From the NCBI GenBank assembly GCA_965224705.1, contig OZ245056.1, forward strand, positions 2,368,001 to 2,432,000: a DNA stretch of 64,000 bases, given 5' to 3'. The notes below the pieces were generated by a model. It ran no database searches. It saw only the letters and a list, made by a program, of their open reading frames with translations, and was not told the DNA's origin. Shown piece after piece: positions 10,601-27,613 of the stretch (the stretch's first letter is position 1; each line of letters starts with the position of its first letter). The position numbers and the translations under genes are program-made. The DNA comes from Spirochaetaceae bacterium. Its GTDB lineage: Bacteria; Spirochaetota; Spirochaetia; DSM-2461.

Positions 10601-13600
10601 AATGGATTTGATGAACCTGACAGGGAATCCAGTGTCAGTGGAGATCCTTCTGAAATAAAAGAATTAAGGAGGGTACGGAGTTTCTATGGCTACAAATTTG
10701 AGAAAACAAATCATGACTATTACATGGATATGATTGAGCAGGTTGATAGATCGTCGGAGTATATGAGCGAGGAAGAATTAAAGCAGCCCCTGTACCGATT
10801 GAGAGATGATGAAGAACGTCTATCCCGACTCAAACAGTTTTTCGGGATTGAACCTGCTGCTGATGGGATGCAGACGTATGAAGATCTTCTCCACCAACTT
10901 CTTGTTTTTATGAGCCGAAAAGATAGGAGCACCCTTGCCCAATGGCTTAACAGTGTTACCTATGAAACCGCACATTTCTGGAAGCATTTCCCCAGGAAAG
11001 GGAGTTCCGATTACGCCTATTCCATGGCCATGCGTTACAGTGTCTTTGGTAAGAGTCCTGAAGAGGTATACGGTGGGCGGATCAGGGAAGAATCTTCAGG
11101 AGCTTCTTATAATGTCTATATAAACTCATTCCAATCTGACTTTGAAGCCATTGAATCGAAAAGAGATACTCTCTATCAGTTCTTTAAATTCGCCGTGCTC
11201 AGTAACAAACTGAAGAGTTCATCGCCAATTATCAGCTTTCAGAGAATGAATGAGAGCCTGGGACAGATGCTGCTTTACGTGTATACAGAAAGGCGGGTTA
11301 GTAGTTGGTGGGATCGATTCTGGACTCCCCATGCCCACAGCGTAGCTCGAAAAAAGGCGGATGAGAACAGGGATTATTATACGGAACAGGCTCAAACTTT
11401 CCTCAACCTGTCCCGTGAATATGCAGATCTCACTCGAAAAGAGTCCTCGATAAAATCTCAATTGAATATTGTCAATGGAAAGGATGATCTGGGCATGCAG
11501 CAGCTCTTCACCGCACTGGGAGAAGCTGTATGGCATGCTTCTACTCGCCAGAAATTGGAGTTGGCGGACTGGTTACAAATAACAGAAGACCATGAATCCT
11601 TCCCTGATAAATGGACGGCCTCCCAATGGGCTGCAAACCTGGCCATCTGCTTTGCTCCCCTGACGAACACCCTGAACCCCACTGTTCTTGATGCAGCCGG
11701 AAGCTTTGGTCAGTTGATGGATTTACTGGTCGGGATTTCTACAATCCAGCGTGAATCCAGGGAAAATACCCGGAATACCTATCTCTACGGCCTGAATGGA
11801 ATTGCCGAAAACCATGAAAACAATGTTCTCGAGTTCAAAGAAGCCTGGAAGGATTTCCAGAAATCCGGCCTCCTGCCCCTTAAGAACTATAATCTGGATG
11901 ATGCGGAATCCAGATTGAACAGGTGGACTGTCAACGGGGAAAAATCAGATCTTGCGCCTCACATTCAGTACTACCTGAATCAGTATGTCCGGGATGCCGT
12001 CCCGGTTTCTCAAATCCAGATCGATCTTCAGACGGCAATGATGAAATACAGGGATCTCATCGGTGAGAATCCCCTGGAGGCCAATCAAGCCTTCATGGAA
12101 GCGGCCGAATACTTCTCGACGATACTGCAGAATTACCGTATCGGGGAAACCTTCATCGCATCGGCCCGTCAAGCCTGGAGTCAACCGGTGTTCAATAAGC
12201 GGGATATCCTGACAGATTCATGGAATGCGGACAAAACTCTTTATGAGGAACTTCTTTCCGGCAGTAATTCCCAGGGCATCCTGGCGAGCAGATATATTCT
12301 GCCCGGATTGAAGGAAATACTGGGTTCCGTGTTCAATGCCCGAATGGATGGCTGGCAGGAAGTTCGTCTGGCCCGGATGTCTGATATGGTGAAGGAAGGA
12401 CAGCTTCAACACGAGCAATGGAATAAGCAGATGCAGGCCATCCTTGCCCGGGGGAAGATGGAATGGCAGCTTGCCAGAATCCGGCTTGAGGCTGAAAGAG
12501 AAAACTGGAAGGAGGATTTTCAAAACAGTTTTCAGGAGAATCTGGAGGCCTGGAATCTTCAATACCAGCTTTTTCTGGAGAAAAAAACATCCTGGGTGTC
12601 TCAAACAACAAAGCAGGCGGTGAATATTGGCGACAGGGATATCCTTCTCCGATTCGGTGCCGCTGCCCGGGAATCTATTGCGGAAGCGGAAAAATTCGTC
12701 ATGCCTGACTTGCCGGATCCCCCCGATCTCAGTAATTTCATGGGCCGCATACTGGATACCACCCTCCTTGCCGGTCTGCTTGAAAATGCACATGGGTTAA
12801 ATGATGGCATTGATGCCATAGAGCCGGTTGTATTTACTTCTCTGACTGAAAACAGCTACCTCACCGGGGACATTCTGGACAAGATTCGTTTCTACCAGAC
12901 AGAAGAAAACGAAGAACTCAGTGCACGAATGGCATTAATTCAGTATGAACGCATGCTTGACACCCTTCATAAGGCTGTTAAGGGTCTCAGGGAGAGTGTT
13001 CACACAGCGAACGCCGATTTTGCTGACAGCATGAAGAACATGCTCATGGCTGGTGGTTTCAAGCGGGTGGGGAAAAATTTTATAAAGAACACAATGGTAA
13101 CTTCCACTCTGTGGGAAACCAAATACGCCGATCATTACATCGAAGGCAGCAGTGACTACGAACCCAATATAAGAAATCTCAGCAAAGAAATGGTTCCCGT
13201 CAGTGATTCCCTTATCGAAGAGTTTGGTTATGTCGGCATACAGGCTCTTCTTGACAGGGCTGTCCAGGGCCTTGAAGATGAGCAGAAACGCATTTTTGGC
13301 GGCGAGGCCGTTTACATAGCTCAAACAATGACTGAGTACTCAGAGAAATACGACGAGTATGATAACAGCAGTAAAAAATGGATAACACGTACCCGTACCT
13401 GGTATGAGGTTGATCCTGATGAAACCATCAGTGCAGAAGAATACAGAAAGCAGGTTCGAGCATGGGAGAATGCCGATTCCGATCAGCAGTCCCGATCCCG
13501 TTACATCAAGCAGAACGGAGGAGAATTCAACGCCCACATTGGCTATGCTCCTCAATTCAAGCCCCAGCCTGACACAAATTTACGCCTTTCTGACTGGAAG

Positions 13601-16060
13601 CAGAATGTCCGCTTCACGGGATCCGGGGAACAGGGCCGTATCATTGGCCTTTTCTCCCAGCATCAACTGATTGAAGCCGTCGCTATCGCTGAATTCAATA
13701 AACCTTTCTATGAGAAAAAACTCTGGGATGACCGTTTCATCGATTTCAAGTCCTTGAGTCTCCGATCAGTTGTTGATATCAGTACAGCCATTGCCGCTGC
13801 TGTAGTCAGTACCGTTGCGACAGTTGTTGTTCCTGCCGCTGGAATTCCGATGATGATGGCAACAGCCGCCCTGACGGCCGGTATTACACTGACCGATGAT
13901 CTGGTTTTTTCAATAGCTGATATGGCAACCGGTTACCGCACACCTGCACAGGCCATGGAAAGTCTGGTGAAAAAAAACTTATCCACCTTTGCCTCAAGTG
14001 CCATCGGTTCCATCGGGTCCGGAATCTTTGAAGGTGCCGGTGCCCTGGGAAAATCTCTCATCGTAGCCGCCCGGACCGGTACAAATCAGGTGGCAGTTTC
14101 CACGATTAACGCCATAGATTTCACGGCCGCTGATGGTGACTTCTTTGATGAAGATGCTTTTTTGGGAGGATTGAATCCAGGAAGTATCGTCATGGGTATG
14201 GCCGGGAGTTTTGTTCAATTCAGCCTGAATGAAGTCAATCTCGCAGGTTATCTTGGAATGGATTACAAACAGGGTCAGATTCTGCACCGAACCATTGGTA
14301 CAGGTGTCAATGCCTCACTGGAATACGGTTTTCAGGGAGAAACTTCTCTGAATCTTCTGAGCTTTTCGGACTTTTTCATGCCGTTCTCCGGGGATGGAAA
14401 GGCTGCTTCGAATTCCAGGATCTTCAACAGTTTTGCTCATGTTGATGTCGGGCTCTTACAGGTTAATCTGGGACAGGATGGTATAACCGCCAACATTGGA
14501 ATGGGTGGGCATCGGATGAATGCCGGTGCCATAGTCCATGCCATCAACGGACTTGACATTTATAGAGAGAATGCCCGTATTGCCCGTTCCAATATCGATG
14601 ATGATCTAACAGTCGCCATGCGGACCCTATACTCTGCCCGGGCTGAGAATGGAGGAACCCGGGTCATGAGAGATCTCTATGAGGACATTCTTGTCGGGAA
14701 AAGGGCCAGGCTGCGGACAGCAAACCGTCAGACATATGATGGAAAAACCGAACTACTCGGTGGGATACGTGTCATTAATTTGAACAAAGAGGGAAAGAGC
14801 GATTTTGATCTGGCTGTACTTCTTGCTCACGAGGCCTGGCGGGATGGAATTGATTCGGGAGAACTGGCCAATAAGATCGAAACCTCGAATGCGGCCTTTG
14901 GGCACATGAGTGTTGCGGCACAGATTGCTTCCACCTATGGATACGACTCTCTGAATGAACATAATGCTGATGAAGCCCGTGCCTTCAATGAAGCCGGTAT
15001 CAGTGGTGACTGGAATGAAGTTGGTGGAATGGTTGAACGATATGATTGGAGTGGAGAGTATTGGAAGTTAATCAGGAAAGAAGATGCATCGTATAAAATT
15101 GTATGGGATGGGGAAAAGAATCTGTATGATGAGAATGGAAATCTTCTTTCCATTGATACAACGGATTCCTATGCCCTGAGTCTTTCAAAATACCTGGGGT
15201 TAGCCAGAACAAATGACTGGCGCAGGGCGGCAGTTCTATTGACGGATAAGGGTGTCAATATAAACAAAGAACGAAATGGATACGTACAGAGCCGTGAGCA
15301 TCGGCAGGAAAATGGTCGGTTGGGTCTGGATGAAATACTCTCTTTCAATGTGGGAAGCAAGAGGCAGGGAGAAATCGATTCCTACCTGTCATCCCGTAAG
15401 CAATACATAAATAAATACAATATGTGGGATATGGTCAATCTTGATGGCAGGTTGTCGAAAATTGGAGGAAAACATGTCCGGAACAGAGCTGAAAGAGCTC
15501 GGATTGACTTCTATCAGGATGTCGCTTCGAATCCTGAGAATCTATGGAAAATGAGAGGAAATTCCCTGACCAATCCTGTGCAGACAGTTGAAGATGGTCA
15601 GGAGACCTATATTACTGTTGCAGACAGGTATAATTATACGGATGAAGCCGGTGTTCATTACAACGGAATCCATAGGGTTTTATTCAGCGAAAACAAAGCT
15701 GTGGATATTGGGAGTCAGGGAATATCCAGCCCGGTATTCACAATCGGCCCTACCACCTTCATGCGTCCGCGATGGCAAAACGTTGACAAAAAAGACTCCG
15801 GATATGGATATTTTGCATCAGGTTTGAGTCGTAACTTCGGATTTATATCAGGTCACTTGAATGATAATAACAGTATTCAGAAGGATTTAGATCATTTATT
15901 TGATAATGCGGACCAGGCGGGATTTAATGTTGTTCAACTACCTGATTACACTTCCTATGGGATGACCGGAACTACCGGGAACTCCACAGCCATACATCTT
16001 CATTATGAGGTAGGCCATTATGACACTATGTATGAGCGTTTGCGGAAGTGGCTGCCTTAG
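4670..16060 (+). CDS. Giant (3796 aa) secreted helical/coiled-coil protein with a C-terminal M23-peptidase-like domain
   Basis: Uninterrupted 11.4-kb ORF. Signal-peptide-like N-terminus, long E/K/R/W-rich coiled-coil tracts, Ala/Val/Gly hydrophobic segment (~13770-14100), LAHEAWRDG motif, terminal GTTGNSTAIHLHYEV (M23 HxH-like). Confidence 0.8.
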   Translation: MKNRFFHWLPTSGVWSYRFASLLFTCVIISWSVFPQTIPLLPSTNHALLEVYIDQAASTRTRNDWLRIARGGFESVLAEWEAAAALVITDSRVLQSGRKKVLKDLEQSLSTGLSEWAVTQFRNQHDPRGFSDFWVQMREAALTATFESRSGEFIKDEKGRLVVIKADRETLAEDSAAFKNFWDELIDQKVDDWYSGAQTAFSELLLDFGSEEAAILETYRQSTLSSLKQSYSRELSKMTRLTESAMIHYRLKNIVDSDSDAGGQDVIPSETRAMLNQVQNDAEAGLTRLKDGLNVNQDAPEVKKADIDAARWRASFREELEKGILLWREAEERLLMNRIEWEKKAGYDLVLTRKRWDKAFRELAEANEKWLDDYQRIWNEGQDRWEIQSRQMQNTLENARSEMASNINGRHDSMVQRVSTLVDILGQSLIMMSTARENFAYWMNKAAPYSQQTLEQVSWDIEDLRARYNRAVNLKKYSHGLRWSFLFFNDKAGEQARYWLEDIYNVYLERAQDVRADLYQTYNLSVFGESGLDEMGLKDLTSELKNGQWEQIFLDDYQVELLKARAAASYWEKELEIAAAVTRYAEKPSSILGSEEEKNEVDRAWTESFDAYQKALETYQAGIKKLEMANLDLKENSRKLTEVQKILTGYREELAEARAVYQNEILLKELDSSRYFKEQIRDSYVRLLELYGLTDDEKKSTESFYMDYLNKNRAYEGEFSLSQTSLLVTELIEGDPGRIPPILSLQDLGVRYENARDWNTANLFSASRLNPDFMEKFQKAWNLSIDEEVYLKATKLVKGLSAQYDADGTLDTEAMVIFQADIAAITAGLLRNYRTELESVVNQIVLLTSEHIFEDTGWAGSSVDLSRAESEEDVKSALKDEAQRAKFTLIADRITFDKEVLFKLKQNLDNWMAGGLKETDFRPIQPNDINDQQSVLAWIYYSSLHENASFSVRLKKDLEFLAELEEVAGEEETIKNFSSLAEAFRQLIPANPLASIYINGRSLLMRNDEDYGAIFLADQFSTHDQSVQGISHWNIFGPYSVSGRQMAEKSTIAEIYRIISRHGLADSSDGAWQFLNPETVWENAHFQSREEVSHMLVHLSRDLEDMPTARPVTEHVMEALERWQKSLEDYFLVKSHSFSDDLDEEEIQTRLEELEAAREVVKMNTQRHSRIESTSEPLMMLALSILIHPNESSASETFIRISASELAGMLTDLNSDLDAESTWLPLLTDLKETLGIQPDDEVAGVLDDHFLPARILAAQYVREASGIARGEAAYADQILYSRLTGLSLESYASMIGQFESENSPGELLNDSYASRGNLDELQNNTAWEDILAPALSDLPGSKLYQATLAEILITLTDEPTARWYLAQEGIDINFDSTGYSRHYALDERAALFFLKREALWGTLTDEKKEEFSLSDESARELEKFSLIAEALHRYIPAVDGNLIEYLGGINGISESEAGIILSDRWNDLYFQKSIQERTLSDADQFLWVNSSLDSLNQYHKAAAFSQVSHLAEKTRNTLAAESKSLDREDSRLKYAVRRNELREKSPGIWRLYLDAKYMQLRENEEWSGSIGETEEFRTGETEFIDRVPLYQGESLPLDSRRTIYQAKDRTQAALLETFNQLALTTDKLNDVLKTRDEESISDSSMERFKLWAEELSSRIGTHFEPEKDPVPTDVFQVNQSLKIEVESSRSEWHRRESEISSLQSKIRSFGQSISNWIENIDQQSRPFITGSQQVIKDLNVKIDAVEERWKNLIGPKDDPQADTYRGAEYRYSRSYNEVQSSLKSLDAAKQNFKKSKAIRDYSSSYHLYLGRDIASEERPADRGESLQMDELQQIIDAARPEKYLGQVSTQYHRSRIVVETLENIQQKTADSLSERDSLYRKQSEEVNSARRLEVALKSLSNVLTDYTEKTLGEYERIYQKREAVLRKFTLDLGDEDDFIYNFRTDPGGSKLMEEQVLLNGMDVHWDRDGRAHITFDLNGFDEPDRESSVSGDPSEIKELRRVRSFYGYKFEKTNHDYYMDMIEQVDRSSEYMSEEELKQPLYRLRDDEERLSRLKQFFGIEPAADGMQTYEDLLHQLLVFMSRKDRSTLAQWLNSVTYETAHFWKHFPRKGSSDYAYSMAMRYSVFGKSPEEVYGGRIREESSGASYNVYINSFQSDFEAIESKRDTLYQFFKFAVLSNKLKSSSPIISFQRMNESLGQMLLYVYTERRVSSWWDRFWTPHAHSVARKKADENRDYYTEQAQTFLNLSREYADLTRKESSIKSQLNIVNGKDDLGMQQLFTALGEAVWHASTRQKLELADWLQITEDHESFPDKWTASQWAANLAICFAPLTNTLNPTVLDAAGSFGQLMDLLVGISTIQRESRENTRNTYLYGLNGIAENHENNVLEFKEAWKDFQKSGLLPLKNYNLDDAESRLNRWTVNGEKSDLAPHIQYYLNQYVRDAVPVSQIQIDLQTAMMKYRDLIGENPLEANQAFMEAAEYFSTILQNYRIGETFIASARQAWSQPVFNKRDILTDSWNADKTLYEELLSGSNSQGILASRYILPGLKEILGSVFNARMDGWQEVRLARMSDMVKEGQLQHEQWNKQMQAILARGKMEWQLARIRLEAERENWKEDFQNSFQENLEAWNLQYQLFLEKKTSWVSQTTKQAVNIGDRDILLRFGAAARESIAEAEKFVMPDLPDPPDLSNFMGRILDTTLLAGLLENAHGLNDGIDAIEPVVFTSLTENSYLTGDILDKIRFYQTEENEELSARMALIQYERMLDTLHKAVKGLRESVHTANADFADSMKNMLMAGGFKRVGKNFIKNTMVTSTLWETKYADHYIEGSSDYEPNIRNLSKEMVPVSDSLIEEFGYVGIQALLDRAVQGLEDEQKRIFGGEAVYIAQTMTEYSEKYDEYDNSSKKWITRTRTWYEVDPDETISAEEYRKQVRAWENADSDQQSRSRYIKQNGGEFNAHIGYAPQFKPQPDTNLRLSDWKQNVRFTGSGEQGRIIGLFSQHQLIEAVAIAEFNKPFYEKKLWDDRFIDFKSLSLRSVVDISTAIAAAVVSTVATVVVPAAGIPMMMATAALTAGITLTDDLVFSIADMATGYRTPAQAMESLVKKNLSTFASSAIGSIGSGIFEGAGALGKSLIVAARTGTNQVAVSTINAIDFTAADGDFFDEDAFLGGLNPGSIVMGMAGSFVQFSLNEVNLAGYLGMDYKQGQILHRTIGTGVNASLEYGFQGETSLNLLSFSDFFMPFSGDGKAASNSRIFNSFAHVDVGLLQVNLGQDGITANIGMGGHRMNAGAIVHAINGLDIYRENARIARSNIDDDLTVAMRTLYSARAENGGTRVMRDLYEDILVGKRARLRTANRQTYDGKTELLGGIRVINLNKEGKSDFDLAVLLAHEAWRDGIDSGELANKIETSNAAFGHMSVAAQIASTYGYDSLNEHNADEARAFNEAGISGDWNEVGGMVERYDWSGEYWKLIRKEDASYKIVWDGEKNLYDENGNLLSIDTTDSYALSLSKYLGLARTNDWRRAAVLLTDKGVNINKERNGYVQSREHRQENGRLGLDEILSFNVGSKRQGEIDSYLSSRKQYINKYNMWDMVNLDGRLSKIGGKHVRNRAERARIDFYQDVASNPENLWKMRGNSLTNPVQTVEDGQETYITVADRYNYTDEAGVHYNGIHRVLFSENKAVDIGSQGISSPVFTIGPTTFMRPRWQNVDKKDSGYGYFASGLSRNFGFISGHLNDNNSIQKDLDHLFDNADQAGFNVVQLPDYTSYGMTGTTGNSTAIHLHYEVGHYDTMYERLRKWLP

Positions 16061-16318
16061 AGCCTGTCGGACTTACGTCTCACGGCTCAATTTTTGCCCT
16101 TCTCTCCAGAAGCAAGCCTCCTGCTTGCTTCTGGAGAGCCGCCTTCGTTTTCTCGCTATCGCTCGGCACTCTCTCAGGATGCGAGTCCATAGACTCGCAT
16201 ACCCTGCTGCTGCGTTGCCAAAATACTCACGCAGCCCAGCTACGCTTAAGTTTTTGTCGCCTTGCATCAGGAAGAAATCATCAAAAATCGCCTCAAAGCC
16301 TTAAAGTCCGACAGACTC
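16060..16318. mobile_element. MITE copy B (about 259 bp), inverted relative to copy A
   Basis: GAGCCTGTCGGACTTA...AAGTCCGACAGACTC. The body matches the reverse complement of 3541-3704 plus about 97 extra nt containing hairpins 16102-16138 and 16179-16200. Confidence 0.85.
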
Positions 16319-16390
16319 CTCAGGAGATGCGGGTCGAATCTGCTGTTCGAGTTATGGGCAATTCGGGGGGTTCCCCCCAGGGCCTGGGAT

Positions 16391-16399
16391 TGGTACACT
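16391..16399 (+). promoter_or_regulatory. Possible extended -10 promoter for the cys cluster
   Basis: TGGTACACT (TGn-TACACT) about 80 nt upstream of the cysD ATG; no clear -35. Confidence 0.3.
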
Positions 16400-16409
16400 A
16401 ATCATCCTA

Positions 16410-16464
16410 GGAGCCTGTCGAACTTCCGCCTTGCGGCGCAAAGTCTTAAAGTCCGACAGACTCC
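16410..16464. mobile_element. Minimal MITE copy C (55 bp)
   Basis: GGAGCCTGTCGAACTT...AAGTCTTAAAGTCCGACAGACTCC; same ends as copies A and B. Confidence 0.8.
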
Positions 16465-16477
16465 TGGAAGTGATATT

Positions 16478-17359
16478 ATGGATCAAATTACACAACTTGA
16501 AAGTCTTGGTATTCATATACTTCGGGAAGCATATGCTAATTTCACCAATCTCTGTATGCTGTGGTCAATTGGAAAAGACTCGACAGTACTCCTGTGGTTA
16601 GCCCGCAAGGCCTTCCATGGTCATGTTCCTTTTCCCCTGGTTCACATTGATACGCATTACAAGATTCCTGAGATGATTGAATACAGGGACAGGCTTACCC
16701 GTGAGTGGCATCTGCCAATGGTTTACGGCGAGAACAGGGCCGCTCTTGAAGCCCGGCAAACCTTTCCCGATGGCAATGTCGACCGTATCACCTGCTGTCG
16801 TCTGCTCAAGTCAGAAGCTCTCAGGAATACTCTGAACGGCACATGGCCGCGGTATCGATACAATCATCAGGATGGTGAGTACCAGGTGGACAGGGATACG
16901 GAGGCCTACACCGGAGTCATTGTGGGGGTAAGATCGGATGAGGAGGGATCCCGGTCCAAAGAAAGATACTTCTCTCCCCGGGATACGGAGAATATCTGGG
17001 AGGTGGAAGATCAACCTCCAGAGTTCTGGAACCAGTTCAAAACAGATTTTGCTCCGAATACTCATATCCGTATTCATCCCCTGCTGGATTGGACTGAAAC
17101 GAATATCTGGGAATACATAGAACGTGAATCCATTGCAACTGTTTCCCTCTACTACGATCAGGGAGATGGCCGACGGTACAGATCCCTGGGGTGTGGACCC
17201 TGTACCCATGCGGTGAAATCCGGCGCAAAAAACGTTCAGGACATCATCACTGAATTGAAGTCAGGTCAATTCTCAAATATTGCCGAGCGTTCAGGACGGG
17301 CCCAGGACAAAGAAGATGGCGGGGGACTGGAAACACTTCGCCGTGAAGGTTACATGTAG
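16478..17359 (+). CDS. cysD: Sulfate adenylyltransferase subunit 2
   Basis: [12 protein letters not shown] (PP-loop), [30 protein letters not shown]...LRREGYM. Start moved to ATG 16478 because the ORF-track extension runs through MITEs. Confidence 0.9.
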
Positions 17360-19155
17360 TGACCGAACAGATGAATGTGGTTATCACTGGCCATGTTGAC
17401 CACGGAAAGAGTACTGTAATCGGTCGTTTGATGGCGGATACAGGCAGTTTACCGGATGGAAAACTCGAGCAGGTACAGGCTTCATGCCGCCGGAACTCAA
17501 AACCCTTTGAATATGCGTTCCTCCTGGATGCCCTCAAAGATGAACAGAGCCAGGGCATAACCATTGATTCGGCCCGGGTCTTCTTCAACACCAAGAAGCG
17601 TCACTACATCATAATTGACGCCCCCGGTCATATTGAATTCCTCAAAAACATGGTGACAGGAGCATCCAGGGCGGAAGCTGCCTTTCTCTGCATTGATGCT
17701 CATGAAGGAGTGCAGGAAAACTCCAAACGGCATGGGTACCTCCTATCCATGCTTGGAATCAAGCAGATATGTGTTCTGGTGAACAAGATGGATCTTGTAA
17801 ACTACGATTCCAGAACCTTCAAATCCGTTGTTCGGAAGTTTTCCCGGTTCCTACGGAATATCAATATGAGAAATGTTCCGTTTATACCGGTTTCCGGCAT
17901 GAACGGAGATAATATTACAACCATCAGCCAGGCAATGCCATGGTGGGATGGCCATACAGTTCTTTCCCTCATTGATTCATTTCAGAAGGAAGAGATTCCA
18001 TTGAACATGCCCTTCCGCATGCCGGTTCAGGGAGTGTATAAGTTTACGGCACTGGAAGATAACCGTCGCATTGTTGCCGGAACAGTTTCTTCGGGAACTC
18101 TTAAAAAAGGTGATGAGATTGTCTTTTATCCATCGGGGAAGAGAAGTCATATAGCCAGTATAGAGGATTTTCCGGACAAAAAGATTGAAGCAGTTGGAGC
18201 AGGTGAGGCAACGGGTTTCACCCTGACCGAACAGATTTACATCAAGCGCGGAGATCTTGCCGCAAAGTCAGATGAAAAACCTCCACTGTCCGGGAACTTG
18301 ATCAGGGTTAATCTTTTCTGGCTTGGTAAAAAACCTCTGGTCCGGGACAGGGAGTACTTCCTGAAAATAGGTACTGAGCGGGTCCGAATGCAGCTGGTGG
18401 ATACTATGAAAGTGATTGATGCTTCCAATCTTAATACTGATGGAATGAAGAAGATGGTTGAGCGTCATGATGTGGCGGACTGTGTTCTCACGACCCAACG
18501 TCCCATTGCTTTCGATCTGGTTGAAGATTTTCCCCAGACCAGTCGCTTTGTTATTGTCGATGGGTATGAAATTGCCGGAGGCGGCATTATTAATCAGTCT
18601 CTCCGGGGAAGAATTGCCCAGTACAGAGACCAGGTTATGAACCGGAACCTTAAATGGGATGTGGGTAATATTACCAGAGTGAGCCGAAGCGAGAAGTATG
18701 GACATCAATCAGCCCTGATTCTTGTTGGAGGACCTGAGGACAGACGCAAAGCAAATTTTGCACGAACTGTTGAAGAAAGGCTTTTCAACCTTGAAACCAA
18801 GGTGTACTACCTGGGAGTTCAGAATGTTCTGGCTGGCCTGGAATCTGATCTGGTTGTAAAAAGAGATGCCATTTACCCGAAGGACAGGGATGAAATGATA
18901 CGCCGCCTTGCTGAGTTGAGCAATATCCTTGTGGATGCCGGTATTGTTCTTGTGGCAACAGTATCTGAATTGAGTCAGGAAGAACAGGAGATTTTTACAA
19001 CTTCTGTTTCTCCAGTATCCGTTTTTACTATCTGGGTTGGCTCAGCAGAAGGTTCCGCTGTGAATGCGGACTACATAATTGAGAAGACGGAGACAGCTCC
19101 CGATCATCTGGATCCTGTGATGAAACTGCTTAAAGAGAAAGGAATTGGAATATGA
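17359..19155 (+). CDS. cysN: Sulfate adenylyltransferase subunit 1 (GTPase) with a degenerate APS-kinase-like C-terminus
   Basis: [50 protein letters not shown]. The C-terminal CysC-like region lacks GxSGSGKS. Confidence 0.88.
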
Positions 19156-20444
19156 GATTCTCACCAACTTCTTACCAACTGGTTTCAGTTAAATCGGGGA
19201 AAGTCTATTCCGATACCAATGAATGGACTTTGAGCCTTCCTGAAGAATCTCCATCCCTGATTCGGGCAGTGTACAGAGAGAAAAAGCTCAGTATCAGGAG
19301 TGATCTGGAAGGATTATACTGTTTTGCCGACTGGCTTCCTGTCAAACGAACGCTGAGGGGGGCATCGGTACCGATCACGTTCAGAAGTACAGCCCTGGCC
19401 GTTGAACTTGGCCTGAACAATCTCTGGATAACTTTCAGTGGGTGGTGGCCGGAGAAGGGCATCACCATGATCACCGGTACTTTTAAGGAATGCGAAGCAT
19501 ACACCGTATGTGCCCGTATGGGTGAACACTTTCCCCATGTTCTCGTGGTTGCTTCGGCCGGAAACACGGCAAGAGCTTTTGCCCATGTGTGTTCAGACAA
19601 TAACATTCCCCTGCTTCTTTTTGTTCCACAGGATAACACAGGTGATGTCTGGCTGGACAAACCCCTGGCTGATTGTGTGAAGCTTGTCTGTCCTGCGGCC
19701 GGTGGGGATTACTACGATGCGATTCGCATGAGTGAGGCTGCGGTTGCAGGTTCAAGCCTGTTTATTGCAGAGGGGGGGGCAAAGAACATCGCTCGCCGGG
19801 ATGGCATGGGAACCACAGTATTATCTGCCGCGGTAATCATTGGCCGTATCCCGGATGTCTACTTCCAGGCAGTGGGAAGTGGAACCGGGGCCATTGCCGC
19901 GTGGGAGGCAGCCATGCGGCTGGCTGCTGATGGCCGATTCGGAAAGAATTCCATGCGGCTTATGGTGAGTCAGAATGAGCCTTTTACACCTATGGCGGAT
20001 TCCTGGAATGCTGACAGCCGGGATTTTATTGTAAAAGATGATGAATCGGCGAGAAAGCTTGCAGGACAGGTGAATGCAAAGGTTCTCACCAATCGACGAC
20101 CTCCCTGGGCAATCCCCGGCGGTTTGTATGATGCCCTGAAATCCACGGGGGGATCTATTCTTACCGCATCCAATGAGGAAGCCTTCAGGGCAGGTGAAAG
20201 ATTCGCAGAACTGGAAGGTTGTGATATCACTCCGGCAGCTTCAGTGGCCGTGGCTTCCTTATTCGATTCAGTAAAAACGGGCAAAGTCGGAAAGGATGAA
20301 GTGGTGATGCTCAATGTAACAGGTGGTGGAGTCCGCGGAATAAAAGAACATGGAGAACTGCATCACATCATCCCGGAGGAAATACTCCCATTGGATTCTT
20401 CTGATGAGAGTATTGTTGAAATCTGTGAGAAGCTCTTCAACTGA
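19152..20444 (+). CDS. Cysteate synthase (PLP-dependent, threonine-synthase-like fold)
   Basis: [20 protein letters not shown] (PLP Lys), [58 protein letters not shown] match the MA_3297/TIGR03844-type family as I recall it. Overlaps the cysN stop (ATGA). Confidence 0.85.
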
Positions 20445-20534
20445 ATTCAATATTTCATGTATAGTGCACAGGAAGGATATCGCTGAATGCAAACTGCAGG
20501 CGAACCCTACCAGCTGATGAGTATTGGAGATTAA

Positions 20535-21824
20535 ATGATTGATATTTTTGCAAAATGTGCGACCAGTGAAGGATACTTCGGAGAACTCAGGACTGCCGGA
20601 GACCGATTTTACACATTACCGGTTATCGATGACATTCCCGGCCCCCTGATGAAGATTCAGGGTCGTGAAAGCATTATGTGGTCGGTCAATAACTACATCG
20701 GCCTTGCCAATGACGCAGAAATCAAAGCTGCTGCGATTGAGGCGGCGGAGAAGTGGTCTGTCAGTTCACCGATGGGCTCCCGTATGATGAGTGGTACGAC
20801 AGGTGAGCATCTGGATCTGGAGAAGTCATTGGCTGAATATGCCCGAAAAGAAGACGCTTTCCTGTTTAATTACGGTTACATGGGTGTCGTGGGAACTGTT
20901 ACCTCCCTCTGTGGACCTGATGATATTCTCATCGTGGACAGGCTTGCGCATGCCTGTATAATTGATGCGGCGTTCAGTGCGAAGGGCGGTCAGGGAGGTA
21001 AACCCATGGTCCGGTTTTTTCGTCACAATGATATGAATGATCTGGAATCGGTACTTGGCAGTGTCAACAAAAACCGTAAGGGCGGGGTGATGATATTGAT
21101 CGAAGGTGTCTACGGAATGACTGGAGACCTGGCTGATCTTCGGAATATTACAATGCTGGCAGAAAAGTACAGTGCCCGTATATTCATTGATGATGCCCAT
21201 GGCATTGGAGTTATGGGTAATCAGGGTCGAGGTACGGCTGATTTCTTTGGTGTCCAGGAGAAAATTGACATTTATTTTGGCACATTTGCGAAAACATTTG
21301 CTTCTATCGGGGGGTATGCGGCTACAAGCACTCAGGTTCGGGACTGGATTGCCTTCAATGCTCGAACTCAGGTCTTTGCCAAAGCCCTTCCCATGGTCTA
21401 TGTTAAATCCCTTCAAGTTGCCCTCAAGAAGGTTATCAATGGAAATGACAGACGTGCTGTCATGTGGGAACGTTCCAACCGATTAAAGAATGGTCTTCGA
21501 GAACTGGGCTGTCATATCGGTTCTGGTGAATCCCCCATATGTGCTGTTTACATTCCTGCCGGGGAAAGTCTGGAAGAACTGATCAAAAAAGTTCTCACCT
21601 ATCTGAGAAGAAATGGAGTTTTCTGCACAGGAGTTATCTGGCCCGTCATTCCCCCGGGGATTGTGATGCTTCGAATGATTCCAACTGCCGCTCATACAGA
21701 AGAACACGTGGCTGAAACAGTTGAAGTATTTAGACGAATGCGGGAAGACTTGCATGTGAAGTTTTCTCTGGCTGAAGAGGAAATTGCCAAAGTTGATAAA
21801 ATATACAGGAAGGGAGCTTTATAA
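20535..21824 (+). CDS. Alpha-oxoamine synthase, SulA/CapB-like cysteate acyltransferase
   Basis: WSVNNYIGLAN, PMGSRMMSG, AFLFNYGY, HACIID, EGVYGMTGD, DDAHG, GTFAK (PLP Lys), QVFAKALP, RMIPTAAHT. Lies directly downstream of the cysteate synthase. Confidence 0.75.
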   Translation: MIDIFAKCATSEGYFGELRTAGDRFYTLPVIDDIPGPLMKIQGRESIMWSVNNYIGLANDAEIKAAAIEAAEKWSVSSPMGSRMMSGTTGEHLDLEKSLAEYARKEDAFLFNYGYMGVVGTVTSLCGPDDILIVDRLAHACIIDAAFSAKGGQGGKPMVRFFRHNDMNDLESVLGSVNKNRKGGVMILIEGVYGMTGDLADLRNITMLAEKYSARIFIDDAHGIGVMGNQGRGTADFFGVQEKIDIYFGTFAKTFASIGGYAATSTQVRDWIAFNARTQVFAKALPMVYVKSLQVALKKVINGNDRRAVMWERSNRLKNGLRELGCHIGSGESPICAVYIPAGESLEELIKKVLTYLRRNGVFCTGVIWPVIPPGIVMLRMIPTAAHTEEHVAETVEVFRRMREDLHVKFSLAEEEIAKVDKIYRKGAL

Positions 21825-21862
21825 AAAGGCCCAGGCTCCCAGGAATCTACAGGGAGAGAGTT

Positions 21863-21946
21863 TACCGGCGGCCGGACTTGAACCGGCACGGCACATGTGC
21901 CAGCAGATTTTAAGTCTGCTGTGTCTACCTATTCCACCACGCCGGC
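21863..21946 (-). tRNA. tRNA-Leu (TAA)
   Basis: GCCGGCG..GGAATAGGTAGACAC..GCAGA-CT TAA AA-TCTGC, long variable arm, GCCGG-TTCAAGT-CCGGC, CGCCGGT-A. CCA is not encoded. Confidence 0.95.
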
Positions 21947-25193: not shown

Positions 25194-25892
25194 TCACCAT
25201 GCATCTATCATATCATCACTGTCCCGGCTTTCTTCGGCAAAAAGATCCGTTACAGCCCGGATGTCATCAAAATAAATGTAGTATTTTCCATAAGTTTCTG
25301 CGACATTGCATACAATATTGAAGCCGGTAATGCTGACACCCATCCGGTCATTATAATGATAATCACGCTGCTTTAAACTGACTGGAACGGTAACAGTAAG
25401 CTTTTTCCAGCCGGAAAAATTGAGTTTTCCCATTGGAATTACTGCATGATTTCCAAACTGATCGGCCAATGTCAGTTCCAGCTTGTGTTCAGTGTTTCTT
25501 CCAGCTACCCATACCGATATTGTTTTTGTTATTCCTTCAATAGGCAGAGGTCTGGTTGGTTTGAGGGAGAAGGTGATTGCACCTCTATGGTAAAACTCAA
25601 TTTTGGCACCAACAACTCTTTCATCTTTCTCACCCAGACCGAACTGTTGTTCATCTTCAATGACTTCTTTGTTGTTTGAACCACCAAAGAAGGTTCTGAG
25701 TGACATGAAACCATGGTCAGCCGGTATAATACCATACCACAAACCCGTGTCCTCCATCTTGCTGACTGAGATCTCTTTGAGTTTTTGCTGGGCAGTGAGT
25801 TTACCTATTTGTTCAGGGTTAATTTCATTCTGGGCAAACCCTGCGGATAAAACCAGCGTTAAGACAATTACTGTAGCTATAAATTTCTTCAT
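25194..25892 (-). CDS. flaA: Flagellar filament outer layer (sheath) protein, FlaA family
   Basis: Signal peptide MKKFIATVIV; PIEGITKTISVWVAGRN, MGKLNFSGWKKL, YIYFDDIRAVTDLF. Confidence 0.88.
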   Translation of the reverse strand: MKKFIATVIVLTLVLSAGFAQNEINPEQIGKLTAQQKLKEISVSKMEDTGLWYGIIPADHGFMSLRTFFGGSNNKEVIEDEQQFGLGEKDERVVGAKIEFYHRGAITFSLKPTRPLPIEGITKTISVWVAGRNTEHKLELTLADQFGNHAVIPMGKLNFSGWKKLTVTVPVSLKQRDYHYNDRMGVSITGFNIVCNVAETYGKYYIYFDDIRAVTDLFAEESRDSDDMIDAW

Positions 25893-25893
25893 T

Positions 25894-26676
25894 TTATTCT
25901 CCTGCTGTCCAGATTTCTTGAGTTCTTTGTTTTGTGACCAGATGATATCCATCATATTGTGTGTTGTGTATATCCGTAAGTATTTTCAAATGATCCAGAT
26001 ACAGATTGAAGCCGGACACAAGTTCTTCCGGATGAGTTGAGATTACTATTTTTGTCAGACTCAGCGAAGGAACAAGTTTTATGTAATTGGAAGACTGTTT
26101 TATGTGGTTTGGCATTGTGATGAACATGTTTTTCCAGCCAATGAACTTCAGGCTTCCTGGATCTCGGAGATTTTCATTTCTAAATGGATGAAGGCGGTGG
26201 GATATCCCGTTGAAATCTCTAAAAAGAAACTCTATGTTGTAGTTATAATTTGATCCCCAAACCCAGAAATCAAGAGTATGTACCCGTCCAGGCAAGGGTA
26301 CAGCCTTGGGAATGAATTCTCCATCATTCTCAACGCCGGGAATGATCTCTATCTGATTATATCCTTGCCGTATAAATGCAGCGTTGATTCCGAATACACC
26401 CAGCGTTTCAGGTTCTCCAGGATCTGTACCGAATAAGTCAGAAGGCCATTCATTCATGGCATATGCCAGGCGCGGACGGTTTTCTTCGGAGAACTTACTT
26501 CCCCTGACCTGCCATACAATGGGTTCCCCGGTGTCACTAAAGTACCCGGATTCCGGCCCATCCCAGGTTTCAATTATCCTCGACTCCAGTCTTACGGTAA
26601 TCTCGTCTGCACCAAGTGCACCTGACAGTACTACCATCAGTATGATCAAAGTCGAATAAAGGCTGTTTCTTTCCAT
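25894..26676 (-). CDS. flaA: Flagellar filament outer layer protein, FlaA family (second paralogue)
   Basis: TAAGGAG RBS before ATG 26676; WQVRGSKF, RQGYNQIEI, LDFWVWGSNYNY, GSLKFIGWKN, LYLDHLKILTD. Confidence 0.85.
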   Translation of the reverse strand: MERNSLYSTLIILMVVLSGALGADEITVRLESRIIETWDGPESGYFSDTGEPIVWQVRGSKFSEENRPRLAYAMNEWPSDLFGTDPGEPETLGVFGINAAFIRQGYNQIEIIPGVENDGEFIPKAVPLPGRVHTLDFWVWGSNYNYNIEFLFRDFNGISHRLHPFRNENLRDPGSLKFIGWKNMFITMPNHIKQSSNYIKLVPSLSLTKIVISTHPEELVSGFNLYLDHLKILTDIHNTQYDGYHLVTKQRTQEIWTAGE

Positions 26677-26731
26677 TCTTAATCTCCTTATTTGTGATAA
26701 GCAAAACGGTGAACAATCACGTTCATAATAA

Positions 26732-27613
26732 TTATAGAATTGACTGCTTGAATGAGTCAAACCATTTTCGCCTATATTTCAATCTACCGGGGTAAAAAAT
26801 AAGCGATTCCTGATTCTTATCACCCATCACTGATAAAAGAATTTTTCTCATCCTTCTATCATCATTTTCTATACTGGCAATAATCCTTTTACTCCAGTAT
26901 CCTGTTGAGGCCGCTGATTCCGTTATAACTGGCGGTTGAATATCCTGAGTTCCATGGTAGGCCTCAGTATTCATTGAACCGGCCAAAAGAAGTAATACCG
27001 ATGCCTCAGCTGCTTCCTCTACAAAACCATCAGGTAACCTGTCCGTATTGATATCACTAATAACCGGGAAGTTCAAGATTGGATAACGCCCGTTTGTTAT
27101 ACTTTCATATGAAGTGAGTAAACTCTCAATTTCTCCGTTATGGAGTATCAGTGCTGGTTTACCCTGATCAACAGCCATATTTCCTGCAATTTCTCCCATC
27201 CTTATGTAGTTTTGTGTTTTGTCCAGGGCGATACCCGTCACATTTTCAGGAGAATCGGCCAGTGGTTCTCCTCCGGCGATTATTACCTGGCTCCTTTTCA
27301 GTAATGGCCGCTTTGCTTCCTCAGCATTCCATGGGGTAAGAACCACGATATCAGGAATATATGCTAATTCTGCAATTATTTCTGAAAGTGTTTCATCATC
27401 ACTCTGTACTTCATGGATTACACGGATGCCATTCAAACGGGAATTCAATGCAAGCCACCAGCTGTATATCTCCCGGTTGCCAATAGTATCGGCATAAGGA
27501 TCGGATATGAATAGAGCTGTTTGCTGTGAACAACCTGGATTGTTTCCGGCCAAGAGGAGGATGAACAATGTCCAGAGACAGGTTCTCAATATCGACTTAG
27601 ATCGACCAGCCAC
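26732..27613 (-). CDS. Hypothetical exported protein/lipoprotein
   Basis: 293-aa ORF in the operon with a hydrophobic leader ending PGC; no family recognised. Confidence 0.6.
   Translation of the reverse strand: MAGRSKSILRTCLWTLFILLLAGNNPGCSQQTALFISDPYADTIGNREIYSWWLALNSRLNGIRVIHEVQSDDETLSEIIAELAYIPDIVVLTPWNAEEAKRPLLKRSQVIIAGGEPLADSPENVTGIALDKTQNYIRMGEIAGNMAVDQGKPALILHNGEIESLLTSYESITNGRYPILNFPVISDINTDRLPDGFVEEAAEASVLLLLAGSMNTEAYHGTQDIQPPVITESAASTGYWSKRIIASIENDDRRMRKILLSVMGDKNQESLIFYPGRLKYRRKWFDSFKQSIL

What the first reader, a model, noticed from the sequence alone, without database searches (positions are those of the whole stretch)
16478..21824. Candidate sulfonolipid (capnine-type) biosynthesis cluster in a spirochete
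Seen: four co-oriented genes, the first three overlapping: cysD, cysN(C), a cysteate synthase and an alpha-oxoamine synthase. Known: MA_3297-type cysteate synthases make L-cysteate from O-phosphoserine plus sulfite, and Bacteroidota SulA/CapB/Fjoh_2419 enzymes condense cysteate with an acyl thioester to give 3-ketocapnine. The last gene shows signatures I recall from that subfamily (M.DIF start, WS.NNY.GLAN, PMG.RMMSG, N[FY]GY, TFAK, Q.[FY]AK.LP) rather than from BioF or Kbl. Inference: this spirochete routes activated sulfate to cysteate and then to a sulfonolipid. That lipid class is characterised mainly in Bacteroidota, and I know of no characterised spirochete example. No APS reductase or ketocapnine reductase gene is present in this window.
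Basis: partly seen in the sequence, partly recalled or inferred. Interest (0 to 1): 0.85.

Follow-up and report, generated by a model that had tools for sequence, protein, structure and literature searches.

The report
Sulfate-to-sulfonolipid operon in a spirochete
A spirochete genome carries four adjacent genes that are predicted to turn sulfate into cysteate and then into the sulfonated long-chain base of sulfonolipids, a lipid class so far tied almost only to Bacteroidota.

Summary
Window 16478-21824 holds four co-oriented genes: cysD, cysN fused to a degenerate APS-kinase-like domain, a cysteate synthase (TIGR03844, 458.8 bits against a cut-off of 324.9) and an alpha-oxoamine synthase.

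The last enzyme matches the solved cysteate acyltransferases CapB (28EH, 325 bits) and SulA (7U7H, 321 bits). The best serine palmitoyltransferase scores 213 bits. It keeps the diagnostic active-site lysine and 9 of 10 mutagenesis-tested pocket residues. In an ML tree it falls in a 100/100-supported CFAT superclade, as a spirochete sister clade to the Bacteroidota enzymes.

No NIR_SIR (PF01077) sulfite reductase domain was found in this genome. In a 400-genome Spirochaetota sample, the CFAT-like gene and cysteate synthase co-occur in 23 genomes. One genome has cysteate synthase only, none has CFAT only, and 376 have neither.

The ketocapnine reductase and N-acyltransferase are not identified. 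No lipid has been measured. I rate it a new variant of a known pathway, with interest about 0.62.

The parts
16478..17359 (+). cysD, sulfate adenylyltransferase small subunit (293 aa)
   Evidence: NF003587 scores 327.7 bits against a cut-off of 195, and PF01507 scores 124.9. The upstream TTG at 16262 lies inside a dispersed repeat.
17359..18633 (+). cysN GTPase part, sulfate adenylyltransferase large subunit
   Evidence: TIGR02034 scores 337.1 against 336.1 over residues 7-402. GTP_EFTU scores 160.9 bits.
18634..19155 (+). Degenerate APS-kinase-like C-terminal domain of cysN
   Evidence: PF01583 scores only 35-37 bits. NF003013 scores 58.8 against a cut-off of 163. In the alignment to the APS kinase structure 3UIE, GLSGSGKS is replaced by GGPEDRRKA and DGDN by GVQN. 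The same degeneracy is seen in 11 of 11 relatives' cluster CysN.
19152..20444 (+). Cysteate synthase (430 aa)
   Evidence: The TIGR03844 equivalog scores 458.8 bits against a cut-off of 324.9. The next best family is threonine synthase at 73.8. Among the 14 control genomes only Methanosarcina acetivorans passes the cut-off.
20535..21824 (+). CFAT-type alpha-oxoamine synthase (cysteate fatty acyltransferase-like, 429 aa)
   Evidence: Best PDB matches are 28EH CapB (325.3 bits) and 7U7H SulA (320.9 bits). The best SPT, 3A2B, scores 213.5. The PLP lysine is K253 and the diagnostic lysine is K283. The careful tree places it in the CFAT superclade with 100/100 support.
21863..21946 (-). tRNA-Leu(taa), downstream boundary of the cluster
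   Evidence: Rfam RF00005 scores 58.8 bits, and ARAGORN calls it.

Best explanation
The four co-oriented genes likely form one operon that, with an unlinked APS reductase, would convert sulfate through APS and sulfite to L-cysteate. It would then condense cysteate with a fatty acyl thioester to give 3-ketocapnine, the first committed sulfonolipid intermediate.

Steps, each marked as shown or inferred:
1. CysD/CysN make APS. The family assignment is shown and the activity is inferred.
2. The CysC-like domain lacks its P-loop and DGD motif, so APS rather than PAPS is the likely product. The sequence is shown and the inactivity is inferred.
3. A CysH-type APS reductase at G000:C1:1663217-1664254 would give sulfite. 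The gene is shown and its link to the cluster is inferred from relatives where it sits inside the cluster.
4. Cysteate synthase would join sulfite to O-phosphoserine. SerC is present in the genome.
5. The CFAT-like enzyme would make 3-ketocapnine from cysteate and acyl-ACP or acyl-CoA.
6. Reduction to capnine and N-acylation would be done by genes not identified here.

No NIR_SIR-type sulfite reductase domain was found in this genome. Sulfate reduction here therefore probably serves the lipid head group rather than cysteine synthesis.
For: Family and junction evidence:
- Overlapping stop and start codons are shown.

CFAT identity of the fourth gene:
- PDB phmmer gives 325 and 321 bits to CapB and SulA. 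It gives 213 to the best SPT, 179 to Kbl and 143 to BioF.
- The SulA Lys281 / CapB Lys280 equivalent is K283. Of the 10 alanine-scanned pocket residues of CapB (PMC13692747, section 6 read), 9 are identical and F113 is Y.
- Careful IQ-TREE tree of 73 rows: CFAT superclade of 59 rows at 100/100, spirochete clade of 24 rows at 99/92, Bacteroidota-type clade of 35 rows at 100/99, SPT clade at 100/98.
- The Bacteroidota-type clade holds a Capnocytophaga protein scoring 824.6 bits to 28EH and an Alistipes protein scoring 910 bits to 7U7H.

Co-occurrence in 400 other Spirochaetota genomes:
- Both genes in 23 genomes.
- Cysteate synthase only in 1 (G070, 89% complete).
- CFAT-like only in 0.
- Neither in 376.

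Synteny:
- cysD-cysN-cys-cfat is conserved in 11 of 22 other spirochete genomes whose neighbourhoods I fetched.
- An APS reductase (TIGR02055, 272.6 bits in G196 against a cut-off of 235.3) sits directly after cfat in G196, G276 and G421. In G193 one (262.9 bits) lies divergent from cys.

Own genome:
- APS reductase: TIGR02055, 251.1 against 235.3.
- No PF01077 domain, with 0 first-look candidates.
- No true APS kinase.
- SerC: 470.4 against 443.6.

Weak hint of expression: contigs of three RNA libraries match pieces of cysN, cys and cfat with 0 differences at depth 2-4.6. The tool warns that this does not show transcription.
Against: - No enzyme was assayed and no lipid was measured.
- The spirochete clade is a sister group of the characterised enzymes, only 36-42% identical to them. 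Substrate and chain length are extrapolated.
- No ketocapnine reductase or N-acyltransferase could be named. The genome has 12 generic SDRs.
- No SulP sulfate permease was found. Other transporter types were not searched.
- The 'dedicated' reading does not generalise. G196, G276 and G241 do have NIR_SIR proteins.
- CysD occurs in 140 of 401 sampled genomes, mostly without CFAT.
- Only 3 of 17 family-f19 genomes, all CFAT-positive, have CysD. The link to cysDN is therefore lineage-specific.
- The Bacteroidota reference rows were fished with a motif that contains the diagnostic lysine. Only one protein passing the SPT model's cut-off is in the tree.
Confidence: 0.78

Rival explanations
1. The cluster is an ordinary assimilatory sulfate-reduction operon for cysteine synthesis, and its adjacency to cysteate synthase and the AOS is incidental.
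For: CysD is common in Spirochaetota without CFAT: 140 of 401 genomes. Three relatives with the cluster also have NIR_SIR sulfite reductases.
Against: No PF01077 domain was found in this 95.2%-complete, single-contig genome. The stop and start codons of the first three genes overlap. The same gene order recurs in 11 of 22 other genomes examined, across four coded families (f1, f57, f58; f41 in part).
Confidence: 0.05
2. The AOS is a serine palmitoyltransferase, Kbl or BioF. Cysteate would then be made for another purpose, such as an osmolyte or a taurine- or coenzyme-M-like product.
For: NCBIfam gives near-equal sub-threshold scores to SPT, BioF and Kbl models. No CFAT model showed up in that library: two close relatives of the characterised CFATs also reached no cut-off.
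Against: PDB scores favour CapB and SulA by more than 100 bits. The tree separates the enzyme from SPT, Kbl and BioF with 100/100 support. The position that is Ala in Spt (PMC9304779, passages read) is Lys in the window's protein and in 22 of 22 full-length clade members. It is Ala in 6 of 6 SPT-like spirochete paralogues. Co-occurrence with cysteate synthase is near perfect.
Confidence: 0.05
3. The enzyme does use cysteate, but the product is not a capnine-type membrane lipid. It could be a short-chain or otherwise modified sulfonated amino-ketone used as a signal or secondary metabolite.
For: Acyl chain-length specificity cannot be read from the sequence. The reductase and N-acyltransferase are unidentified. 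The clade is distinct from the characterised one. In the 7 f19/f32 genomes whose neighbourhoods were fetched, cfat is paired with a PanE-like reductase and a transporter rather than with lipid genes.
Against: All six assayed CFATs made long-chain bases (PMC13692747, section 6 read). The acyl-side pocket residues listed there are conserved. In Bacteroidota the reductases are also unlinked, generic SDRs (PMC11211663, section 7 read).
Confidence: 0.12

Closest known systems
CapB / CFAT of Capnocytophaga ochracea (PDB 28EH/28FA) and SulA of Alistipes finegoldii (PDB 7U7H)
   Same: The fold-type I AOS scaffold matches. The PLP lysine, the diagnostic second lysine, and residues N52, G114, Y115, H139, C141, H222, T250 and R380 are kept. 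These are the best PDB matches, and both fall in the same 100/100 superclade.
   Different: This enzyme is only about 37-42% identical to Bacteroidota-type proteins. It lies in a separate sister clade confined to spirochete genomes in my sample. Three pocket positions differ: F113 is Y, A82 is S and M277 is V. It has not been assayed.
Cys-CFAT-KCR (CapA-CapB-CapC) sulfonolipid pathway of Bacteroidota
   Same: The same two committed enzymes occur: a TIGR03844-type cysteate synthase plus a CFAT. In both cases the reductase is unlinked. PMC11211663 section 7 reports KCR genes scattered and not clustered with cys or cfat.
   Different: Here the two genes are adjacent and fused into an operon with cysDN, and in three relatives with an APS reductase as well. 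Of 80 lysine-motif loci fetched from the public genome collection, mostly Bacteroidota and with flanks of 3 kb or less, only one had cysteate synthase next to cfat. That one is a Spirochaetia MAG.
Archaeal cysteate synthase (the family behind TIGR03844; its role in coenzyme M synthesis is recalled, not tested here)
   Same: The equivalog model is passed. The only control genome that passes is Methanosarcina acetivorans.
   Different: The context is bacterial, next to a lipid-type AOS. I did not search this genome for coenzyme M genes.
Bacterial serine palmitoyltransferase and sphingolipid synthesis
   Same: Same superfamily and the same condensation chemistry.
   Different: It scores 213 bits or less to the solved SPTs. 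It has Lys instead of Ala at the diagnostic position. It forms a separate clade.
CysDN-CysH assimilatory sulfate reduction
   Same: CysD, CysN and a CysH-type APS reductase all pass their family cut-offs.
   Different: The APS-kinase domain is degenerate. No NIR_SIR sulfite reductase was found in the genome. Sulfite therefore likely goes to cysteate rather than to sulfide.

Membership tests
Cysteate fatty acyltransferase (CFAT; SulA/CapB) | Fold-type I alpha-oxoamine synthase with a PLP-binding lysine | tested here: met
   PF00155 scores 126.5 bits. K253 aligns with CapB K250.
Cysteate fatty acyltransferase (CFAT; SulA/CapB) | A lysine from the neighbouring protomer (SulA K281 / CapB K280) where Spt has alanine | tested here: met
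   K283 lies in QVFAKALP. Six of 6 SPT-like spirochete paralogues have Ala there. The criterion comes from PMC9304779 (passages read).
Cysteate fatty acyltransferase (CFAT; SulA/CapB) | First-shell residues around the PLP-cysteate adduct (N52, F113, G114, Y115, H139, C141, H219, T247, K250, K280 of CapB) | tested here: met
   Nine of 10 are identical and F113 is Y. The mapping was made by hand from the HMMER alignment, and the residues were read.
Cysteate fatty acyltransferase (CFAT; SulA/CapB) | Phylogenetic placement with characterised CFATs rather than SPT, Kbl or BioF | tested here: met
   The careful tree gives the superclade 100/100. The enzyme is a sister clade, not nested inside the Bacteroidota clade.
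Cysteate fatty acyltransferase (CFAT; SulA/CapB) | [quoted passage not shown] | not testable with these tools
   This needs an enzyme assay.
Cysteate synthase (TIGR03844) | Score over the curated equivalog cut-off | tested here: met
   458.8 bits against 324.9.
Cysteate synthase (TIGR03844) | O-phosphoserine plus sulfite gives cysteate | not testable with these tools
   Only substrate supply was checked. SerC is present and an APS reductase is present.
Bifunctional CysN/CysC | An APS kinase domain with a Walker A loop and the DGD motif | tested here: not met
   The alignment to 3UIE shows GGPEDRRKA and GVQN at those positions. NF004035 scores 425.4 against a cut-off of 715. The meaning of the motifs is recalled knowledge.
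Thioredoxin-dependent APS reductase (TIGR02055) | Score over the cut-off, plus the CC...CXXC cysteines | tested here: met
   251.1 bits against 235.3. ECCGIRK and GCAPCT are seen in the translation. Their iron-sulfur role is recalled.
3-ketocapnine reductase (CapC/KCR, SDR) | An SDR that reduces 3-ketocapnine | tested here: inconclusive
   There are 12 SDRs in the genome and none is assignable by NCBIfam. The literature says sequence alone does not predict KCR activity (PMC11211663, section 7).

The most novel reading that the evidence does not exclude
Sulfonolipids are a regular membrane lipid of a broad set of Spirochaetota lineages. They are made from inorganic sulfate by a self-contained cysD-cysN-cys-cfat(-APS reductase) module. 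In this mollusc-metagenome-associated genome, sulfate reduction survives only to feed that lipid head group. This raises the possibility that the lipid acts on the animal host, as Bacteroidota sulfonolipids act on choanoflagellates and on TLR4.
Probability: 0.5. Interest if true: 0.75.

Novelty: new variant of a known kind. Interest (0 to 1): 0.62.

Why it matters
- Sulfonolipids are treated in the papers I read as a Bacteroidota trait. One survey of human gut genomes assigned 9632 of 9633 prioritised producers to Bacteroidota (PMC11525784, passages read).
- A conserved spirochete clade of the two committed enzymes would extend the lipid class to a second phylum with a very different cell envelope.
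- It also offers a compact, portable operon for making cysteate-derived lipids from sulfate.
- It gives a testable reason why a genome without sulfite reductase keeps sulfate activation.
- The DNA runs that hold most of the stretch, and the RNA runs that hold small parts of it, include runs labelled mollusc metagenome. Named relatives include a clam symbiont and an abalone-associated candidate genus. A host-signalling role is therefore worth testing.

Tried and rejected
I obtained Bacteroidota references instead with a motif scan of genome contigs and family searches in those genomes.
- One search failed on one mis-specified reference and was repeated without it.
- A PanE/ApbA-like reductase next to cfat in f19-type genomes looked like a candidate ketocapnine reductase. 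It has no homologue in this genome at E <= 1e-8, so it cannot explain this cluster.
- I tested whether CysD would track CFAT across the phylum. It does not: 140 of 401 genomes have it, and only 3 of 17 in f19.
- I tested whether absence of sulfite reductase is general among cluster carriers. It is not: 3 of 5 have NIR_SIR.
- No SulP transporter was found. Other sulfate transporters were not searched.
- No Rfam riboswitch or leader was found in the window. Promoter and terminator scans were at chance level.
- RNA-library contigs cover only small parts of the cluster at low depth. Parts without cover say nothing.
- The search of earlier findings returned nothing for this place.
- Literature: 'sulfonolipid' + 'spirochete' gave 9 papers. 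At least 3 of cysteate, spirochaet, sulfonolipid, capnine and sulfobacin gave 22 papers. By listing and abstract start, none reports a spirochete sulfonolipid. One lipidomics paper that included Treponema denticola reports ceramide sulfonates for other species (passages only; its supplementary tables were not read).
- The library holds open-access papers only. Liu et al. on CapA/B/C was not read.


Full report
**What is there**

The window is G000:C1:2368001-2432000 of a 3.0-Mb single-contig genome, 95.2% complete. FlaA genes at 25194-26760 mark it as a spirochete.

Four + strand genes occupy 16478-21824:
- cysD: NF003587, 327.7 bits against a cut-off of 195.
- cysN: TIGR02034, 337.1 against 336.1, with a C-terminal APS-kinase-like domain.
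- Cysteate synthase: the TIGR03844 equivalog scores 458.8 against 324.9. The next family is threonine synthase at 73.8.
- An alpha-oxoamine synthase (AOS) that reaches no NCBIfam cut-off.

The junctions support one transcription unit. The cysD stop overlaps the cysN GTG by one base, and cysN overlaps cysteate synthase by ATGA. A 90-nt spacer with a GGAG precedes the AOS. A tRNA-Leu(taa) on the other strand at 21863-21946 closes the unit. The downstream fba and tatD genes are unrelated.

**The APS-kinase-like domain is degenerate**

In the alignment to the Arabidopsis APS kinase structure 3UIE, the Walker A stretch GLSGSGKS is replaced by [13 protein letters not shown] is replaced by GVQN. The same two positions are degenerate in all 11 relatives' cluster CysN proteins I aligned.

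The genome has no other convincing APS kinase. The likely product of CysDN here is therefore APS. The functional meaning of the two motifs is recalled knowledge.

**The AOS is a CFAT-type enzyme**

phmmer scores against all PDB chains:

| PDB chain | Enzyme | Bits |
|---|---|---|
| 28EH | Cysteate-C-fatty acyltransferase (CapB) | 325.3 |
| 7U7H | Alistipes SulA | 320.9 |
| 3A2B | Best serine palmitoyltransferase | 213.5 |
| 1FC4 | Kbl | 178.7 |
| 1DJ9 | BioF | 143.5 |

Radka et al. (PMC9304779, passages read) name Lys281 of SulA as the one active-site difference from Spt, which has alanine. Pang et al. (PMC13692747, section 6 parts 1-2 read) solved the CapB PLP-cysteate complex and alanine-scanned ten pocket residues.

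I mapped these by hand through the HMMER alignment and read them. The window's protein has N52, Y113, G114, Y115, H139, C141, H222, T250, K253 and K283. That is 9 of 10 identical, with Phe113 changed to Tyr. Of 18 listed contact residues, 15 are identical.

Within Spirochaetota the lysine is present in the window's protein and in 22 of 22 full-length clade members. Six of 6 SPT-like paralogues from other spirochetes have alanine.

**Tree**

I collected 73 rows:
- The window's protein.
- 22 spirochete CFAT-like proteins. L031 was left out as truncated.
- 6 spirochete SPT-like paralogues (NF047600, 516-589 bits for the four I scanned, below the 640 cut-off).
- 36 proteins from loci found by a lysine-motif DNA scan of the public species genomes. 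These were chosen from the 80 loci with fetched flanks, favouring named genera and full length.
- One Bacteroidota SPT that passes NF047600 (691.9 against 640).
- Five Bacteroidota Kbl, plus E. coli Kbl and BioF.

The quick tree and the careful tree (IQ-TREE LG+C20, UFBoot/SH-aLRT) agree. Support in the careful tree:

| Clade | Rows | UFBoot/SH-aLRT |
|---|---|---|
| CFAT superclade (stem 1.42) | 59 | 100/100 |
| Spirochete clade, including the window | 24 | 99/92 |
| Bacteroidota-type clade | 35 | 100/99 |
| SPT clade | 7 | 100/98 |

The Bacteroidota-type clade contains a Capnocytophaga protein scoring 824.6 bits to 28EH and an Alistipes protein scoring 910 bits to 7U7H.

Caveats:
- The reference rows were selected by a motif containing the lysine.
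- The tool flags long branches.
- Only one protein passing the SPT model's cut-off is included.
- The PDB scores are an independent check.

**Sulfite supply**

A second PAPS_reduct protein lies at G000:C1:1663217-1664254. It passes the APS-reductase model TIGR02055 (251.1 against 235.3) and shows the ECCGIRK and GCAPCT cysteines. It has a 100-residue N-terminal extension with a CxxC and no Pfam match.

No NIR_SIR domain (PF01077) was found in the genome, with 0 first-look candidates, while 11 of 14 controls ring. SerC is present.

This genome can therefore probably make sulfite from sulfate, and O-phosphoserine, but probably cannot reduce sulfite further.

**Relatives**

Phylum sample of 400 other Spirochaetota genomes:
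- A CFAT-like hit (414 bits or more, 46-57% identity) occurs in 22 genomes. A truncated copy at a contig end occurs in one more. The next-best AOS hit is 260.5 bits.
- Cysteate synthase occurs in 24 genomes, split over two contigs in G169.
- The two sets overlap in 23. G070 (89% complete) has cysteate synthase only. No genome has CFAT-like only.
- These genomes are related, so the counts are not independent.

Among 30 nearer relatives, 17 have the gene, including 12 of 13 in the same genus.

Gene order across 22 other genomes:
- cysD-cysN-cys-cfat is kept in 11: G196, G276, G241, G414, G406, G412, G417, G416, G413, G421 and G422.
- In G196, G276 and G421 an APS reductase follows cfat directly.
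- In G193 an APS reductase is divergent from cys-cfat.
- G427 keeps the cys-cfat pair only.
- In G426 and G432 cfat stands alone in the stretch fetched.
- In seven f19/f32 genomes the two genes are unlinked.

By contrast, only 1 of 80 lysine-motif loci had cysteate synthase within the 3-kb-or-less flanks. Those loci are mostly Bacteroidota, and the one exception is a Spirochaetia MAG. This fits the report that cys, cfat and kcr are scattered in Bacteroidota (PMC11211663, section 7 read).

**Results that limit the reading**

- CysD is common in the phylum without CFAT: 140 of 401 genomes, and only 3 of 17 in the all-CFAT family f19.
- Three of five cluster carriers tested do have NIR_SIR proteins. 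'Sulfate reduction only for the lipid' is therefore a statement about this genome, not about the module.
- Four of five f19 genomes have only sub-threshold PAPS-reductase-like hits.
- No SulP permease was found.
- The reductase step is open. There are 12 SDRs and none is assignable.
- The N-acyltransferase was not sought, because I know of no defined family for it.

**Expression and habitat**

One DNA contig from a run labelled mollusc metagenome spans 16296-21892 with 27 differences. The cluster is therefore contiguous in a second assembly, which may or may not be independent.

Contigs of three metatranscriptome libraries match pieces of cysN, cys and cfat without differences at depth 2-4.6. 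The tool states that this does not show transcription.

**Verdict**

The novelty lies in three things:
- The phylum.
- The distinct enzyme clade.
- The operon that couples sulfate activation, and in relatives APS reduction, to the two committed sulfonolipid enzymes.

The lipid itself is predicted, not shown.

Noticed in passing
window 16056-16330 and 16437-16475: A MITE-like dispersed repeat with inverted ends (GAGCCTGTCGGACTT ... AAGTCCGACAGACTC) sits just upstream of cysD. blastn finds 347 matching pieces in the genome, with up to about 165 covering one position and about 25 near full length at 74-86% identity. Metagenome contig depth spikes there.
   Followed up: partly
window 4670-16060 (+): An uninterrupted 3796-aa ORF lies directly upstream of the cluster. 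It has no Pfam match at E <= 0.01.
   Followed up: partly
window 1617-3026 (+): An IS1380-family transposase (NF033539, 332 bits against a cut-off of 180).
   Followed up: no
L032-L037 (other Spirochaetota genomes): SPT-like AOS paralogues group with a protein that passes the Bacteroidota SPT model (100/98). The four scanned score 516-589 bits to NF047600, under the 640 cut-off. All six have Ala at the CFAT lysine position. Some spirochetes may therefore make sphingolipid-type bases.
   Followed up: partly
L042:8935-9975(-) and its homologues in L044, L046, L048, L050, L052, L054: In f19/f32-type genomes, cfat is flanked divergently by a PanE/ApbA-family reductase (7 of 7) and a Glt-symporter-like protein (6 of 7). 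The reductase is a possible non-SDR ketocapnine reductase. It has no homologue in the window's genome.
   Followed up: partly
L056, L070, L072 (genome contigs): The CFAT lysine motif also occurs in MAGs labelled Thermoanaerobaculia, Chlorobiota and Roseobacteraceae. The Chlorobiota locus has an APS-reductase-like gene next to cfat. In the tree, L070 and L072 fall inside the Bacteroidota-type clade.
   Followed up: partly
G000:C1:1663217-1664254 (L003:1393-2430, -): The genome's APS reductase carries a 100-residue N-terminal extension with a CxxC pair (SPCAKC) and no Pfam match. The cluster-borne reductases of relatives (237-249 aa) lack it.
   Followed up: partly
L041:9343-10101 (+), genome G241: A 252-aa protein with DUF2061 plus a weak APS-kinase-like domain (NF003013, 76.8 against a cut-off of 163) lies just upstream of cysD in one relative.
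   Followed up: no
G000:C1:1676687-1677838 (L002, -): A threonine-synthase-like frame (66 bits to TIGR03844, below the cut-off) contains one in-frame TGA.
   Followed up: no
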